From IMG/VR virus record IMGVR_UViG_2681813154_000004: a DNA stretch of 37,535 nt. The stretch is one strand, 5' to 3'. Shown here one piece after another: positions 3,393-7,383 of the stretch; the stretch's first letter is position 1; each line of letters starts with the position of its first letter. The notes below the pieces were generated by a model. The model was not told the origin of the DNA. It made no database searches and worked only from the letters and a program-made list of their open reading frames with translations. The stretch is from a virus. Taxonomy: Duplodnaviria > Heunggongvirae > Uroviricota > Caudoviricetes. A program made the position numbers and the translations under genes.

Positions 3393-4067
3393 TTAGGCTT
3401 TGATTTTGTATCTTCTTGGTTTTCCTGAGAAAATCACTGTACCAATTATAGAGCAATTACCGTTGATCTTAATGTAAGGCTCAGGCCAGTTTGGGTTTAA
3501 CGCTTTGAGATAACGCTGTGTCCCATCTTCTATCAACCTTTTGAAGGTGGTTTCGCCTGTATCGTGCATCAATGCAATAACGTCGTCACCGTGGCAGGCA
3601 GGTACTTCAGGATCGACAAAAATCATGTCTCCCGGGCGGTACTCATCAATCATTGAATCACCTATCACCCGCAAGATATAAGTCATTTCCCCACAGGGTA
3701 CAGGGCAGGGATACGTTTCTGCTGTGCTCAAATCAACCTCAGAATATCCAACTTCTTTCCATGCTCCGGCCTGTACCCATGATATGACAGGGACTAATGT
3801 GATTTGTTTATTAGTGATTGAAACATCAGGTTTTTTTGTGATGTTCGTTGTCTGGTGTTCTTGATCGAGCCATCCGACAGGCAGGTCGAAACATTTTTCG
3901 ATGTGTCGTGCCATGCTGTCACCGATATTTTTAGTAGCACCATCTCCCATAAACCTGCTGGTCTGGGTTGGCTCGCGATCAATCATAGTGGCAAAGGAAG
4001 AATTCCCGCCAACACCATCTCTCAGTTTTCTGGCGTTAGACCGCCGGATGTCATGGATTGTTTTCAT
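3393..4067 (-). CDS. cI: CI-type prophage repressor, LexA/S24 peptidase family
   Basis: N-terminal HTH region, Ala-Gly cleavage site (VQAGAW), S24 Ser (GDSM) and Lys (TFKRL); divergent from the cro-like gene. Confidence 0.9.
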   Translation of the reverse strand: MKTIHDIRRSNARKLRDGVGGNSSFATMIDREPTQTSRFMGDGATKNIGDSMARHIEKCFDLPVGWLDQEHQTTNITKKPDVSITNKQITLVPVISWVQAGAWKEVGYSEVDLSTAETYPCPVPCGEMTYILRVIGDSMIDEYRPGDMIFVDPEVPACHGDDVIALMHDTGETTFKRLIEDGTQRYLKALNPNWPEPYIKINGNCSIIGTVIFSGKPRRYKIKA

Positions 4068-4389: not shown

Positions 4390-4953
4390 ATGAGGCTAAC
4401 CGTGGGTAAGCATCACTGGAAAATAGAAAAACAGCCTGAGTGGTACGTGAAAGCTGTCAGAAAAACTATCGCGGCGTTGCCGGGTGGTTACGCTGAAGCG
4501 GCTGACTGGCTCGATGTAACAGAAAACGCTTTATTCAACCGCCTTCGTGCAGATGGCGATCAGATTTTCCCGCTGGGATGGGCAATGGTTTTACAGCGTG
4601 CTGGTGGCACTCACTTCATTGCTGATGCTGTGGCGCAGTCTGCAAATGGCGTCTTTGTGTCTCTTCCTGACGTCGAGGATGTGGACAACGCCGATATCAA
4701 CCAACGCCTGCTGGAAGTCATTGAACAGATCGGCAGTTATTCAAAACAGATTCGTTCAGCAATTGAAGACGGTGTAGTGGAACCGCATGAGAAGACAGCA
4801 ATTAACGATGAGCTGTACCTCTCAATTTCGAAGCTGCAGGAGCATGCAGCACTGGTCTACAAAATCTTTTGCGTTTCAGAAAGTAGTGACGCCCGCGAGT
4901 GTGCAGCTCCGGGCGCCGTGGCGTGTCGTGACTGTGGAGAAACTAACGCATGA
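4390..4953 (+). CDS. CII-like early regulatory protein (YdaT / phage CP76 type)
   Basis: Position directly after cro; 187-aa ORF; family call from memory only. Confidence 0.5.
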
Positions 4954-5288
4954 ACAGTTTAACAACACACTACCGTCGCTCGCAACTGATTGCGCTTCCT
5001 GTACCGGGTGGAAAAGCGAAGGTGGAGTATTGCTATGCAGTAAATGTACTAGGTGACAGGGAAATTGTAACCCACAGCTTTGCAGAGTGGGCTGTGGGTG
5101 ATTTCAACCGGCAGAAGGAGACAGTCCTTTGCGACAAGTTAACCGCTGGTTCAAAGATCACTACGGAGTGCCCGTCAGAGTCATTCGTTGGGAGCCGGAA
5201 ACACAACGGGTTATCTACCTCCGTGAAGGCTATGAGCATGAGTGCTTCAGCCCGCTCGAACAGTTTCGTTGTAAATTCAGGGAAATAG
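4950..5288 (+). CDS. Hypothetical ORF (112 aa) with doubtful 3' half
   Basis: ATG overlaps the CII-like stop (ATGA coupling), but the C-terminal half is Ser-rich and low in complexity while another frame reads better. Confidence 0.35.
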
Positions 5289-5308
5289 AGGTCGGTCATG
5301 AGCACTAA
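5129..5308 (+). CDS. Hypothetical 59-aa protein in an alternative frame (just under the ORF-track cutoff)
   Basis: TTG start 9 nt after AAGGAG (5114-5119); reads [59 protein letters not shown]; stop overlaps the replication gene start. Confidence 0.45.
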
Positions 5309-6239
5309 ATTAACCGGCTATGTATGGGATGGTTGCGCTGCGTCAGGCATGAAATTATCCAGCGTGGCAATTATGGCCCGCCTGGCTGATTTCAGTAATG
5401 ACGAAGGTGTGTGCTGGCCATCAATTGAAACCATTGCCCGTCAGATTGGCGCGGGGATGAGTACCGTCAGAACGGCTATCGCACGGCTGGAAGCAGAAGG
5501 CTGGTTAACGCGTAAGGCGCGTCGCCAGGGTAACCGCAATGCGTCGAATGTTTATCAGCTTAACGTTGCGAAGCTTCAGGCAGCGGCATTTTCTCAACTG
5601 TCAGATTCTGACCCGTCAAAATCTGACGCATCAAAATCTGACCCGTCAAAATTTGATGCGTCGAAATCTGGCAAAAAAGCGGGTTTTCACCCGTCAGAAT
5701 CTGGCGGGGATCCGTCAGTAAAATCAAAACATGATCCGTCAGATAAAAAAACTTCTCGTCCGGACGCTTCGCAACCGGACACGCAGACGGCTGAACAGGA
5801 GTTTTTAACTCGCCATCCTGATGCGGTTGTATTCAGCCCTAAAAAGCGCCAGTGGGGAACGCAGGATGATTTGACCTGCGCACAGTGGCTCTGGAAAAAA
5901 ATCATCGCCCTGTACGAGCAGGCCGCCGAATGTGACGGCGAGGTGGTTCGTCCCAAAGAACCGAACTGGACAGCCTGGGCAAACGAAATTCGCCTGATGT
6001 GTGTGCAGGATGGTCGTACTCACAAACAAATCTGCGAGATGTACAGCCGCGTCAGCCGCGATCCGTTCTGGTGCCGTAACGTGCTCAGCCCGTCGAAGCT
6101 GCGGGAAAAATGGGATGAGCTTTCCCTGCGCTTATCGCCGTCCGTCAGCACGTACACAGAAAAACGCGAAGACCCGTACTTCAAAGCCAGTTACGACAAC
6201 GTGGACTACAGCCAGATCCCGGCAGGATTCAGGGGGTGA
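5298..6239 (+). CDS. Replication initiation protein, lambda O-like (YfdO-like), N-terminal HTH
   Basis: N-terminal winged-helix-like region, central SDxSK pentapeptide repeats encoded by tandem DNA repeats (iterons), position after cII. Confidence 0.8.
   Translation: MSTKLTGYVWDGCAASGMKLSSVAIMARLADFSNDEGVCWPSIETIARQIGAGMSTVRTAIARLEAEGWLTRKARRQGNRNASNVYQLNVAKLQAAAFSQLSDSDPSKSDASKSDPSKFDASKSGKKAGFHPSESGGDPSVKSKHDPSDKKTSRPDASQPDTQTAEQEFLTRHPDAVVFSPKKRQWGTQDDLTCAQWLWKKIIALYEQAAECDGEVVRPKEPNWTAWANEIRLMCVQDGRTHKQICEMYSRVSRDPFWCRNVLSPSKLREKWDELSLRLSPSVSTYTEKREDPYFKASYDNVDYSQIPAGFRG
5598..5750 (+). repeat. Candidate replication origin iterons (15-bp tandem repeats, core CCGTCAAAA) inside the replication gene
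   Basis: TCTGACCCGTCAAAA / TCTGACGCATCAAAA / TCTGACCCGTCAAAA / TTTGATGCGTCGAAA at 5607-5666, then degenerate CCGTCAGA copies and an A-rich tract. Confidence 0.55.
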
Positions 6240-6241
6240 TC

Positions 6242-6730
6242 ATGAGTCTTTTGAATGAAGTTCAGAAATACATTGAAGCCCATCCGGGCTGTACTTCCGG
6301 AGATATTGCGGATGCTTTTGCCGGTTACTCACGGCAGCGCGTTCTGCAGTCAGCAAGCAAGTTACGTCAGAGTGGGCGTGTGGCTCACCGTTGTGAAGGA
6401 GATACACGCAGACATTTCCCGCGCCTGACTGAGAGAGCGCAGGAACCGGAACCACAACCAGTTCGTGAAACCAGACCTGTGCGCAATTTCTATGTCGGCA
6501 CTAACGATCCCCGTGTGATTTTGTGCCTGACCCGCCAGGCGGAAGAACTGGAGTCCAGGGGCTTATACCGTCGTGCTGCAACGGTGTGGATGGCGGCATT
6601 CCGTGAAAGCCACTCCCAGCCAGAACGAAACAATTTTCTGGCGCGTCGTGAGCGGTGCTTACGGAAAAGCAGCAAGCGCGCTGCATCGGGTGAAGAGTGG
6701 TATCTGTCAGGGAATTACGTGGGGGCTTAA
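6242..6730 (+). CDS. Regulatory protein with PerC-like C-terminal region
   Basis: ATG at 6242 after AGGGGG; C-terminal LESRGLYRRAATVWMAAF...RERCLRKS resembles the PerC/Pch motif from memory. Confidence 0.5.
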   Translation: MSLLNEVQKYIEAHPGCTSGDIADAFAGYSRQRVLQSASKLRQSGRVAHRCEGDTRRHFPRLTERAQEPEPQPVRETRPVRNFYVGTNDPRVILCLTRQAEELESRGLYRRAATVWMAAFRESHSQPERNNFLARRERCLRKSSKRAASGEEWYLSGNYVGA

Positions 6731-7383
6731 TGAGTAATAAATATTGCCAGGCGCTGGTGGAACTGCGGAACAAACCAGCCCATGAACTGAAGGAAGTGGG
6801 CGATCAGTGGCGCACGCCGGACAACATTTTCTGGGGAATTAACACCCTGTTTGGCCCGTTTGTTCTGGATCTGTTCACTGACGGTGATAACGCCAAATGT
6901 GCCGCGTATTACACGGCGGAAGACAACGCGCTGGCGCATGACTGGTCAGAACGTCTTGCGGAGCTTAAAGGTGCTGCCTTTGGTAATCCCCCATACAGCC
7001 GCGCCAGTCAGCATGAGGGGCAATACATCACCGGCATGCGTTACATCATGAAACATGCCAGTGCCATGCGTGATAAGGGCGGGCGCTATGTTTTCCTGAT
7101 CAAAGCTGCCACCAGCGAAGTGTGGTGGCCGGAAGATGCAGATCATATTGCTTTTATTCGCGGGCGTATTGGTTTTGAACTGCCTGTCTGGTTTATCCCG
7201 AAAGACGAGAAGCAGGTACCGACAGGAGCTTTTTTCGCTGGTGCTATTGCTGTTTTTGACAAGACCTGGAAGGGACCGGCAATCAGCTACATCGGGCGCG
7301 ATGAACTTGAGGCATGTGGTGAGGCGTTTCTGGCGCAGGTTCGCCAGCAGGCGGAAAAACTGGTCAGGGAGATGGCGGCATGA
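6730..7383 (+). CDS. Phage DNA N6-adenine methyltransferase (Dam-like)
   Basis: NPPY catalytic motif (GNPPYSRA); ATG overlaps the upstream stop (TAATG). Confidence 0.85.
   Translation: MSNKYCQALVELRNKPAHELKEVGDQWRTPDNIFWGINTLFGPFVLDLFTDGDNAKCAAYYTAEDNALAHDWSERLAELKGAAFGNPPYSRASQHEGQYITGMRYIMKHASAMRDKGGRYVFLIKAATSEVWWPEDADHIAFIRGRIGFELPVWFIPKDEKQVPTGAFFAGAIAVFDKTWKGPAISYIGRDELEACGEAFLAQVRQQAEKLVREMAA

What the first reader, a model, noticed from the sequence alone, without database searches (positions are those of the whole stretch)
5598..5750. Iteron-like 15-bp tandem repeats inside the replication initiator gene (candidate ori)
The replication gene contains four to seven tandem copies of a 15-bp unit (TCTGACCCGTCAAAA and variants; core CCGTCA[A/G]A) that also encode an SDxSK pentapeptide repeat linker, followed by an A-rich tract. 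This is the lambda arrangement of ori iterons embedded in the O gene. No helicase-loader homologue (P/DnaC-like) is evident downstream, so the replisome recruitment route is unclear.
Basis: partly seen in the sequence, partly recalled or inferred. Interest (0 to 1): 0.45.

Follow-up and report, generated by a model that had tools for sequence, protein, structure and literature searches.

The report
Replication origin inside a phage initiator gene
The 15-bp repeats inside this temperate phage's replication-initiator gene are conserved as DNA rather than as protein, so they are very probably the phage's replication origin, arranged as in phage lambda: an ordinary kind of element, but undescribed for this very common initiator family.

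Summary
The rep gene (5298-6239) of this SfII/SfIV-like phage holds five dyad-symmetric sites (GTCAGAWTCTGAC) every 15 bp (5600-5672). A sixth lies at 5693-5705. Two 24-bp GATC-headed, A/T-rich units follow (5709-5756). All of this lies in DNA coding for a disordered linker between an N-terminal winged-helix domain and a C-terminal domain.

Eighty prophages from many Enterobacterales genera show selection on the DNA itself:
- The site is about 100-fold or more denser in the linker than in the flanks.
- Linker serine codons are 85% TCA/TCT, against 31% elsewhere in the gene.
- A ~70-bp block (5682-5750) is equally conserved at all three codon positions. The DNA-binding domain shows 0.85/0.91/0.54.
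- Two relatives read the same site in another reading frame.
- The site sequence changes together with the DNA-binding-domain subtype.
- Mosaic breakpoints fall just after the block.

This is the lambda/phi80/P22 arrangement, so I call it a new member of a known kind. Origin activity and initiator binding remain untested.

The phage does lack a P/DnaC/DnaB gene. A side lead bears on this: the initiator ends in the invariant C-terminal tail of host DnaT (…IPxGFRG). In relatives, that tail occurs only where no phage loader gene follows.

The parts
5298..6239 (+). Replication initiator gene, 313 aa. 99.9% identical in DNA to SfIV gp41, which records annotate as 'replication protein', 'primosomal protein' or 'DNA replication protein O'.
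   Evidence: ORF; megablast to SfIV, SfII and related phages; PHROG 391 'replication initiation O-like', E 1.6e-135.
5298..5591 (+). Coding region for the N-terminal winged-helix DNA-binding domain (aa 1-98). This is the presumed origin-recognition domain.
5600..5672 (.). Five tandem dyad-symmetric sites (iterons) on a 15-bp lattice: 5600 GTCAGATTCTGAC, 5615 GTCAAAATCTGAC, 5630 ATCAAAATCTGAC, 5645 GTCAAAATTTGAT, 5660 GTCGAAATCTGGC. The alternative register TCTGAC-CS-GTCARA is equally symmetric.
   Evidence: Across 79 related loci the spacing is 15 bp in 220 of 308 neighbouring pairs, with core T-C-A-R-A-W-T-C-T-G-A. Copy number varies from 3 to 6 SDxSK units among loci with an identical N-domain.
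5673..5692 (.). Spacer AAAAAAGCGGGTTTTCACCC between sites 5 and 6, holding an A-tract and a T-tract. On the minus strand it scans as a terminator-like hairpin.
   Evidence: Sequence. The T-tract and ACCC are highly conserved; the rest is moderately conserved. Terminator-like match at 5693-5680.
5693..5705 (.). Sixth, separated site GTCAGAATCTGGC. It is the best conserved of the sites.
   Evidence: It is retained even in the deletion variants examined, which have lost most or all of the tandem array. phiP27 (L005) and L169 read it in a different frame.
5709..5756 (.). Two 24-bp GATC-headed, A/T-rich units (GATCCGTCAGTAAAATCAAAACAT and GATCCGTCAGATAAAAAAACTTCT). This is the candidate DNA-unwinding region.
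   Evidence: the repeat finder D6; pattern scan. GATC at 5709 is present in 79/79 related loci and GATC at 5733 in 66/79. The unit occurs three times in L164. 70-72% A+T.
5682..5750 (.). The ~70-bp block conserved at the DNA level with no codon periodicity. I take this to be the core of the origin.
   Evidence: Top-base frequency by codon position is 0.875/0.858/0.841, against 0.85/0.91/0.54 in the N-domain and about 0.55-0.60 just downstream.
5592..5780 (+). Coding region for the disordered inter-domain linker (about aa 99-161), which is what the origin DNA encodes.
   Evidence: AlphaFold pLDDT is below 50 over aa 102-160, between two confidently folded domains.
5781..6137 (+). Coding region for the C-terminal helical domain (about aa 162-280), homologous to the C-domain of phi80 gp15.
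6195..6236 (+). Coding region for the C-terminal tail …DNVDYSQIPAGFRG, which matches the invariant C-terminal tail of host DnaT.
   Evidence: 8 of 9 identical to E. coli DnaT SQIPPGFRG. The tail is invariant in 17 DnaT orthologues. Related initiators match DnaT tails at E 1e-7 and 4e-9. In relatives the tail is never followed by a loader gene.

Best explanation
The segment 5600-5756 is the phage's origin of replication, embedded in the initiator gene as in lambda.

Inferred mechanism. The initiator's N-terminal winged-helix domain binds the dyad-symmetric sites, five on a 15-bp lattice plus a sixth 33 bp further on, probably as dimers. The resulting nucleoprotein complex destabilises the adjacent A/T-rich, GATC-headed 24-bp repeats. 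The C-terminal part of the initiator then brings in the host replicative helicase, because the phage has no loader or helicase of its own. The origin DNA can sit inside the gene because it codes for a disordered linker whose amino-acid sequence is barely constrained.

Shown here:
- The repeats exist and are dyad-symmetric.
- They and the following ~70 bp are under selection as DNA.
- They co-vary with the DNA-binding domain and travel with it as a module.
- No loader gene is present.

Inferred, not shown: initiator binding, unwinding, origin firing, any role for Dam methylation of the two conserved GATCs, and the helicase recruitment route.
For: 1. Repeat anatomy.

2. In 79 loci from the one-genome-per-species (GTDB) genome scan, spanning about 30 genera, matches to GTCAGAWTCTGAC are concentrated in the linker:
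- <=1 mismatch: 118 matches in 17.8 kb of linker, 0 in 417 kb of flanks.
- <=3 mismatches: 383 in the linker, 85 in the flanks.
- Typical loci carry 4-7 sites, with 15-bp spacing dominant.

3. Codon evidence. Linker Ser codons are 51% TCA and 34% TCT, against 19% and 12% in the rest of the gene. Lys AAA is 95% against 64%. At conserved residues of the N-domain, synonymous codons are well randomised, with a mean top-codon share of 0.50. The loci are therefore diverged enough for the test to mean something.

4. Codon-position conservation is 0.875/0.858/0.841 in 5682-5750 and 0.85/0.91/0.54 in the N-domain.

5. Frame independence. phiP27 reads GGTTTTGACCCTTCAGAATCTGGAC as V-L-T-L-Q-N-L-D, where the window reads the homologous DNA as G-F-H-P-S-E-S-G. 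L169 has a perfect site in frame 1 while all its others are in frame 2.

6. Co-variation:
- STVRT/GNRN domains go with TCTGAC/GTCAGA arms.
- STVIT/GQR domains go with TCTGAA/TTCAGA arms.
- TTVSAA/SGGR domains go with TTGAC-CCC-TCAA, present in both orientations and encoding different peptides (DPSNI against EGSTV).

7. Modularity. Many relatives share only aa 1 to about 161-171 with the window and then switch C-domain. phiNP shares nt 2-479, and mEp460_4F5 shares nt 446-942.

8. The repeats code for a disordered linker between two folded domains.

9. Precedent. phi80 gp15 has four annotated gp15 binding sites at the same place in its gene, and it shares this protein's C-domain. Lambda, P22 and L have iterons inside the initiator gene (PMC8022706). 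In lambda-type Stx phages, synonymous mutations of in-gene iterons abolish plasmid establishment (PMC7466680).
Against: - There is no experimental evidence for this family. The SfIV genome paper says nothing about an origin, and I could not read the SfV paper.
- The 15-bp lattice is about 1.4 helical turns, and the half-site centres are only 7-8 bp apart. Both are unusual for iteron arrays and for wHTH dimers. I cannot tell which of the two palindrome registers is the real site, or whether monomers bind.
- No DnaA-box or IHF consensus lies nearby.
- Some database homologues have lost most or all of the tandem array: P0017 keeps one site, and P0031 (seen on 128 Salmonella contigs) keeps two. 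Either the array is partly dispensable or those prophages are defective.
- Uniform conservation could in principle come from recent spread of this short segment by recombination rather than from purifying selection. That would need breakpoints tightly flanking the block in many lineages.
Confidence: 0.8

Rival explanations
1. The repeats are selected only as a peptide: a flexible, low-complexity SDxSK linker between two domains, amplified by slippage. The DNA regularities would then be by-products of recent duplication.
For: The region does encode a disordered linker. Copy number varies by whole 15-bp or 30-bp units, as replication slippage or unequal recombination would produce.
Against: - Third codon positions are as conserved as first and second positions.
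- Ser and Lys codons are fixed across genera whose N-domain synonymous sites are randomised.
- The same DNA is read in another frame in two lineages.
- The peptide varies (SDPSK, SESER, DPSNI/EGSTV) while the DNA dyad is kept.
Confidence: 0.03
2. It is a cis-acting DNA or RNA element with a role other than origin firing. Examples are autoregulatory or copy-control binding sites for the initiator, sites for another phage or host protein, a structured mRNA or antisense-RNA element, or a hairpin or cruciform that regulates translation of the C-domain.
For: - DNA-level selection by itself does not say what the element does.
- The strand folds much better than shuffles (z = -5.2).
- A terminator-like hairpin lies on the minus strand at 5693-5680.
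- The arms of the dyads change symmetrically between subtypes. That fits a hairpin as well as a dimer site.
Against: - No promoter-like site in 5200-6300.
- No Rfam family above threshold; the only match is a sub-threshold microRNA hit caused by the palindromes.
- The site sequence tracks the subtype of the adjacent DNA-binding domain.
- The position, the dyad sites and the following A/T-rich repeat copy the origins of lambda, phi80 and P22 (PMC8022706).
- A phage of this type must have an origin, and nothing else in the replication module looks like one.
Confidence: 0.12
3. The conserved block and repeats are a recombination hotspot or mosaic joint that has spread recently among phages. Their conservation would then reflect youth, not function.
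For: Mosaic breakpoints do cluster just downstream of the block. Conservation drops to about 0.55-0.60 immediately after it.
Against: - The block is contiguous with an N-domain whose synonymous sites are saturated in the same loci.
- The tandem sites differ in lineage-specific ways yet keep the core.
- The site co-varies with the DNA-binding subtype.
- Module boundaries next to origins are what the lambda paradigm predicts.
Confidence: 0.05

Closest known systems
Phage lambda ori inside gene O (also the 933W and 'P27' Stx phages)
   Same: - Initiator-binding repeats with internal dyad symmetry lie inside the initiator gene.
- They sit in the segment between the N-terminal DNA-binding domain and the C-terminal domain.
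- An A/T-rich region follows on the downstream side.
- The repeats add linker residues to the protein, and repeat number differs between relatives (PMC7466680, PMC8022706).
   Different: - Lambda iterons are about 19-20 bp (ATCCCTCAAAACGAGGGA); here a 13-bp dyad sits on a 15-bp lattice.
- The lambda O N-domain is Pfam Phage_rep_O; this one is HTH_36.
- Lambda has the P loader next door; this phage has none.
- The A/T-rich part here is two GATC-headed 24-bp repeats and is only about 70% A+T.
Phage phi80 gene 15 / gene 14 replication module
   Same: The C-terminal domain is homologous: 35% identity, E 2e-25. phi80 gene 15 carries four annotated gp15 binding sites, 21 bp apart, at the equivalent place in the gene.
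   Different: - The phi80 gp15 N-domain is Phage_rep_O, and its sites are TTCCCGAAAACGGGAA-like.
- gp15 ends in a W-rich acidic tail (DFNNTDWAYGVIR) and is followed by the P-like gp14.
- The window protein ends in the DnaT-like tail and has no gp14 homologue.
P22 gene 18 and phage L gene 18 origins
   Same: Different initiator specificities each have their own imprecise repeats within the initiator coding region. Phage L has six repeats of an 11-bp unit, a short unit like the one here (PMC8022706).
   Different: Those modules encode their own DnaB-type helicase (gene 12). Their initiators are only distantly related to this one.
Plasmid iteron replicons (winged-helix Rep proteins) and GATC-containing unwinding elements (oriC 13-mers, P1 oriR)
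   Same: A winged-helix initiator, a repeated binding-site array and an adjacent A/T-rich repeat. The GATC-headed A/T-rich repeats recall the oriC 13-mers and the P1 oriR GATC repeats; that comparison is from my own knowledge and was not tested here.
   Different: - The array lies inside the initiator ORF.
- Spacing is 15 bp rather than about 22 bp.
- No DnaA box was found.
- There is no evidence for a Dam or SeqA role beyond conservation of two GATCs and a phage Dam gene nearby.
E. coli DnaT (primosomal protein I)
   Same: The last 9-20 residues match DnaT's invariant C-terminal tail. This probably explains the 'primosomal protein' annotations in phage records.
   Different: - No Pfam DnaT match.
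- Profile comparison with the DnaT C-domain is weak: E 0.028, probability 1.8%.
- The protein is an origin-binding initiator, not a restart factor.

Membership tests
Lambda-type origin embedded in the initiator gene | Several repeated sites inside the initiator ORF, between the DNA-binding N-domain and the C-domain | tested here: met
   Six sites at 5600-5705, within DNA coding for the disordered linker (about aa 99-161).
Lambda-type origin embedded in the initiator gene | Each site has internal dyad symmetry (a dimer-type site) | tested here: met
   GTCAGA-W-TCTGAC is a perfect palindrome in copy 1 and matches 5/6 arm pairs in the consensus. The binding register is ambiguous.
Lambda-type origin embedded in the initiator gene | A/T-rich unwinding region directly downstream of the sites | tested here: inconclusive
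   5715-5756 is 70-72% A+T, the highest in the gene but only about the 95th percentile of the window. It is highly conserved and repeated.
Lambda-type origin embedded in the initiator gene | Sites selected as DNA, co-varying with the N-domain and exchanged with it as a module | tested here: met
   DNA-level selection; frame independence; co-variation; module boundary.
Lambda-type origin embedded in the initiator gene | Initiator binds the sites, and the fragment supports initiator-dependent replication | not testable with these tools
   Needs EMSA or footprinting and a plasmid replication assay. No published experiment was found.
Lambda-type origin embedded in the initiator gene | Adjacent phage-encoded helicase loader or helicase (P, DnaC-like, DnaB-like) | tested here: not met
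   None among the early-region ORFs scanned with Pfam. None within 2.5 kb downstream in 67 of 76 related loci.
Pfam Phage_rep_O (lambda O / phi80 gp15 N-domain) | N-terminal domain matches PF04492 | tested here: not met
   Best match is HTH_36 (PF13730). There is no Phage_rep_O hit, whereas phi80 gp15 hits it at E 6e-25.
phi80 gp15-type initiator C-domain | Sequence homology of the C-terminal domain | tested here: met
   35% identity over 114 columns, E 2e-25.
Plasmid-type iteron origin | Direct repeats of about 17-22 bp at about 22-bp phasing, intergenic, usually with DnaA boxes | tested here: not met
   15-bp lattice, inside an ORF, and no DnaA-box or IHF consensus in 4800-6800.
DnaT (PF17948) | DnaT C-terminal three-helix ssDNA-binding domain | tested here: not met
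DnaT (PF17948) | Invariant C-terminal tail S-x-P-D-x-x-I-P-x-G-F-R-G | tested here: met
   The window protein ends YSQIPAGFRG. The tail is invariant in 17 DnaT orthologues. Relatives P0022 and L121 match DnaT tails at E 1e-7 and 4e-9.

The most novel reading that the evidence does not exclude
The initiator's C-terminal tail (…DYSQIPAGFRG) mimics, or was captured from, the invariant C-terminal tail of host DnaT, whose function is undefined in the structural papers I read. Through that tail, 'loader-less' phage initiators would plug an origin-bound complex directly into the host partner that DnaT uses to bring in DnaB/DnaC. The phage distribution fits this. The tail sits on two unrelated C-domains, and it is never followed by a phage loader gene (0 of 42 loci, against 9 of 34 with other tails). 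That would point to the DnaT tail as the missing helicase/loader recruitment element of the restart primosome.
Probability: 0.3. Interest if true: 0.7.

Novelty: new member of a known kind. Interest (0 to 1): 0.4.

Why it matters
This initiator-plus-origin module is very common. The 5298-5800 segment matches 2107 of 5426 complete E. coli genomes, and 1576 of them cover at least 80% of it. It recurs across Enterobacterales prophages, including the Shigella serotype-converting phages. Yet records annotate the gene only as 'helix-turn-helix protein', 'primosomal protein' or 'replication protein O'.

Defining the origin has three practical uses:
- It gives a concrete target for replication assays, for incompatibility and exclusion studies, and for building phage-derived plasmids.
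- It gives a marker for telling intact prophages from origin-deleted ones.
- It is a clean example of how selection on DNA can be read from codon-position statistics inside a gene.

The side observation on the DnaT-like tail offers a testable handle on two open points: how loader-less lambdoid phages recruit DnaB, and what DnaT's conserved tail does.

Tried and rejected
- PDB sequence searches with the whole protein and with a C-domain profile found only MarR-type HTH matches or noise.
- NCBIfam gave nothing useful.
- Rfam gave only a sub-threshold microRNA match caused by the palindromes.
- The promoter scan found nothing.
- DnaA-box and IHF consensus searches found nothing in 4800-6800.
- GATC pairs within 30 bp are not rare in the window (13 pairs). 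The case for the two GATCs therefore rests only on their conservation.
- The 'P27' origin studied by Kozlowska et al. has lambda-type iterons, so it is not a precedent for this family, even though the phiP27 record encodes a homologue of this initiator.
- The SfIV paper does not discuss an origin. The SfV genome paper is not held. Searches for 'initiator-solo' and HTH_36 with iterons gave nothing relevant.
- The 80 IMG/VR loci were too close to the window for substitution tests, having identical N-domains, and were used only for copy-number variation.
Full report
**Context.** The window is a temperate phage of the Shigella SfII/SfIV group. The gene at 5298-6239 is 99.9% identical in DNA to SfIV gp41 and 98-99% identical to genes of SfII and several E. 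coli phages. Records annotate those genes as 'replication protein', 'primosomal protein' or 'DNA replication protein O'.

It lies in a lambda-like early right operon. The order is: cI-like repressor (3393-4067, minus strand), a cro-like gene by position (as annotated in SfIV; not itself scanned), CII-like (4390-4953), DUF4222 (5129-5308), rep, PerC-like (6236-6730), Dam methylase (6697-7383), LexA-like, RusA, KilA-N, DUF968/HNH and Q.

**The observation.** Tandem Repeats Finder reports a 15-bp unit TCTGACCCGTCAAAA, 4.3 copies, at 5607-5670. The repeat finder extends this to six in-register copies spaced 15, 15, 15, 15 and 33 bp, and shows that the copies are also inverted repeats of one another.

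The simplest description is a 13-bp palindrome GTCAGA-W-TCTGAC. It starts at 5600, 5615, 5630, 5645, 5660 and 5693, with 0-3 mismatches. Because palindromes are tandem, the register TCTGAC-CS-GTCAGA is equally symmetric, and I cannot tell which one a protein would use.

Two further CCGTCAG copies (5712, 5736) belong to a different repeat. This is a 24-bp unit beginning with GATC and otherwise A/T-rich: GATCCGTCAGTAAAATCAAAACAT and GATCCGTCAGATAAAAAAACTTCT, at 5709-5756. The stretch 5715-5756 is 70-72% A+T, the richest 40 nt of the gene. In frame, the array encodes SD(P/A)SK units.

**Protein anatomy.** Pfam finds only an N-terminal HTH_36 winged helix (aa 23-70), not Phage_rep_O. PHROGs places the protein in 'replication initiation O-like'.

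An AlphaFold model built on 46 homologues has three parts:
- a folded winged-helix domain (aa 1-98);
- a disordered stretch (aa 102-160, pLDDT below 50);
- a confidently folded helical C-domain (aa 162-280), followed by a disordered tail.

The repeats and the GATC units lie exactly in the DNA that codes for the disordered stretch. The C-domain is homologous to the C-domain of phi80 gp15, at 35% identity and E 2e-25. phi80 gp15 is the O analogue of phage phi80. Its own gene carries four annotated gp15 binding sites at the equivalent position, and its N-domain is Phage_rep_O.

**DNA element or peptide repeat?** I fetched 80 loci from one-genome-per-species bacterial genomes, covering Escherichia, Shigella, Citrobacter, Enterobacter, Klebsiella, Kluyvera, Pantoea, Erwinia, Yersinia, Providencia, Proteus, Rahnella, Tatumella and others. 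I added eight annotated phages. Six lines of evidence follow.

- *Site density.* Matches to the 13-mer with at most 1 mismatch number 118 in 17.8 kb of linker and 0 in 417 kb of flanks. With at most 3 mismatches the counts are 383 and 85. Typical loci carry 4-7 sites, and 220 of 308 neighbouring pairs are 15 bp apart.
- *Codon choice.* Serine codons in the linker are 51% TCA and 34% TCT, against 19% and 12% in the rest of the gene. Lysine AAA is 95% against 64%. The loci are diverged enough for this to mean something. At conserved Ser, Leu, Arg, Ala, Gly, Pro, Thr, Val and Ile residues of the N-domain, the commonest codon holds only 50% on average, and conserved serines use up to six codons.
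- *Codon periodicity.* Top-base frequency by codon position is 0.85/0.91/0.54 in the N-domain, the signature of protein-level selection. It is 0.875/0.858/0.841 in the block corresponding to window 5682-5750, with no periodicity at all. It falls to about 0.55-0.60 just downstream.
- *Frame independence.* phiP27 reads GGTTTTGACCCTTCAGAATCTGGAC as V-L-T-L-Q-N-L-D, where the window reads the homologous GGTTTTCACCCGTCAGAATCTGGCG as G-F-H-P-S-E-S-G. A Citrobacter prophage (L169) has a perfect site in a different frame from all its other sites.
- *Peptide varies, dyad stays.* The repeats encode SDPSK, SESER or DPSNI/EGSTV. In the last case the site TTGA-CCCC-TCAA occurs in both orientations and so encodes two different peptides.
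- *GATC conservation.* The GATC at window 5709 is present in 79 of 79 loci and the one at 5733 in 66 of 79. The 24-bp unit is triplicated in one locus.

Together these show a cis-acting nucleic-acid element. A peptide repeat does not explain them.

**Is it the cognate site of this initiator?** The consensus 15-mer changes with the subtype of the recognition helix and wing:
- STVRT with GNRN goes with CTGAC…GTCA.
- STVIT or STVTT with GQR goes with CTGAA…TTCAG.
- TTVSAA with SGGR goes with TTGAC-CCC-TCAA.

The N-domain and the element also move together. Many relatives match the window only over aa 1 to about 161-171 and then carry a different C-domain. Among phages, phiNP shares nt 2-479 of the gene and mEp460_4F5 shares nt 446-942. 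This is the modular structure known for lambdoid initiators, where origin specificity resides in the N-terminal half together with the iterons (PMC8022706).

**Copy-number variation.** Among 80 IMG/VR contigs with an identical N-domain, most encode a 313-aa protein. Variants of 308, 318 and 323 aa differ by whole SDxSK units. In the protein database there are also 303-, 296-, 288-, 287-, 286- and 282-aa forms that have lost part or all of the tandem array. Those I examined keep the sixth site and the GATC block. These may be crippled prophages, or they may show that one or two sites plus the block suffice. In lambda, two iterons plus the A/T-rich region are the minimal unwinding substrate (discussion in PMC7466680).

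**Interpretation.** I put it at about 0.8.

What is shown is the anatomy, the DNA-level selection, the co-variation and the modularity. What is inferred is binding, unwinding at the GATC-headed A/T-rich repeats, origin firing, and any role of methylation. The phage carries a Dam gene, and many relatives have one directly after rep, but I have no evidence beyond conservation of the two GATCs.

Some points fit less well. The A/T richness is modest. The 15-bp lattice and closely spaced half-sites are unusual. There is no DnaA box or IHF site. There are no experiments on this family.

I considered three rivals:
- A pure peptide linker, which the evidence above contradicts.
- Another cis function, or an RNA or hairpin element. 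This is not excluded, but there is no promoter, no Rfam family, and the link to the DNA-binding subtype argues for protein recognition.
- Recent spread of the block by recombination. This is unlikely because the contiguous N-domain is saturated at synonymous sites in the same loci.

**Helicase recruitment.** That is correct for the window and for most relatives.

More telling is the tail. The protein ends …DYSQIPAGFRG, and E. coli DnaT ends …SQIPPGFRG. In 17 DnaT orthologues the tail S-x-P-D-x-x-I-P-x-G-F-R-G is invariant while the preceding linker varies. Some related initiators match DnaT over 20 residues or more:
- VNHISEPDTEIPPGFRG against VNTVSEPDSQIPPGFRG, E 1e-7.
- ERDINAISRPDTTIPPGFRG against KRDINAISQPDSQIPPGFRG, E 4e-9.

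The tail occurs on two unrelated C-domains, the phi80-gp15 type and Phg_2220_C. Among 76 intact loci, none of the 42 with a GFR tail has a P-like, DnaC-like or DnaB-like gene within 2.5 kb downstream. Nine of the 34 with other tails do (Fisher p = 4e-4, not corrected for relatedness). All phi80-type C-domains with a W-rich acidic tail like that of gp15 are followed by a gp14/P-like gene.

**Novelty and verdict.** Origins made of iterons inside the initiator gene are textbook for lambda, phi80, 82, P22 and the Stx phages, and have been inferred from sequence for phage L (PMC8022706, PMC7466680). This is a new member of that kind, for an HTH_36-type initiator family that lacks a loader.

The family is very common. 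The 5298-5800 segment matches 2107 of 5426 complete E. coli genomes. I found no description of its origin.

The particulars are new details rather than a new principle: a 13-bp dyad on a 15-bp lattice, a separated sixth site, and GATC-headed 24-bp A/T-rich repeats. Interest is moderate at 0.4. The DnaT-tail lead is the part that could matter more if it holds.

Noticed in passing
window 6195-6236 (tail of the rep protein); L091-L170; E. coli dnaT in L010 2979-3518 (minus strand): The initiator ends in the same tail as host DnaT (…IPxGFRG). That tail is invariant in DnaT orthologues. In relatives it sits on two unrelated C-domains. It is never followed by a phage helicase-loader gene: 0 of 42 loci, against 9 of 34 with other tails. 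phi80-type C-domains with a W-rich acidic tail always have a P-like gene next door.
   Followed up: partly
window 5709-5712 and 5733-5736; Dam gene 6697-7383: Two GATC sites 24 bp apart head the A/T-rich repeats and are conserved in 79/79 and 66/79 related loci. The phage carries its own Dam methylase two genes downstream, and many relatives have one directly after rep. SfIV itself is reported to lack the methylase (PMC3851460), so the window is not SfIV proper in this part.
   Followed up: partly
window 5437-5458 and 5464-5476: Inside the coding region for the DNA-binding domain (A-R-Q-I-G-A-G-M), CCCGTCAGATTGGCGCGGGGAT resembles the sixth site plus its flank (CCCGTCAGAATCTGGCGGGGAT at 5690-5711), 82% over 22 nt, read in a different frame. 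A second CCGTCAGAACGGC lies 26 bp further on. This could be chance or an extra weak site.
   Followed up: no
window 4950-5288 versus 5129-5308: There are two overlapping ORFs in different frames upstream of rep. The SfIV record annotates the 112-aa ORF (gp40, no family match). RefSeq E. coli genomes annotate the 59-aa ORF, which matches DUF4222 at E 8e-19 and overlaps the rep start by 11 nt. The SfIV annotation is probably the wrong frame.
   Followed up: partly
window 5680-5693 (minus strand): The spacer between sites 5 and 6 scans as an intrinsic-terminator-like hairpin on the minus strand (CGGGTGAAAACCCG followed by CTTTTTTGCC). The stem is only moderately conserved in relatives.
   Followed up: no
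proteins P0015, P0017, P0019, P0031, P0064, P0069 (homologues of window 5298-6239): These natural deletion variants have lost most or all of the tandem sites but keep the sixth site and the GATC block. P0031 is seen on 128 Salmonella contigs. They may mark origin-crippled prophages, or they may define the minimal origin.
   Followed up: no
L007 2690-2790, L008 2690-2800, L009 2705-2800: More distant HTH_36 initiators carry unrelated repeats at the same place in the gene. Salmonella SI5 and Stx phage Min27 have GGGGCAGGAGCTGMC two or three times. Klebsiella RAH1 has CCCCTATGCCATCTGATGGCA-like units containing a perfect palindrome TGCCATC-T-GATGGCA. The in-gene arrangement therefore seems general for this superfamily.
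   Followed up: partly
window 6236-6730: The gene after rep overlaps its stop codon. It encodes a winged-helix plus PerC-family protein, named yfdN in E. coli annotation. It is present after rep in some relatives and absent in others, so it is unlikely to be an obligatory replication partner.
   Followed up: partly
window 5298-5800 against complete E. coli genomes: The N-domain plus origin segment matches 2107 of 5426 complete E. coli genomes, with up to 4 copies per genome. Eight of the 2676 matching places are on plasmids.
   Followed up: no
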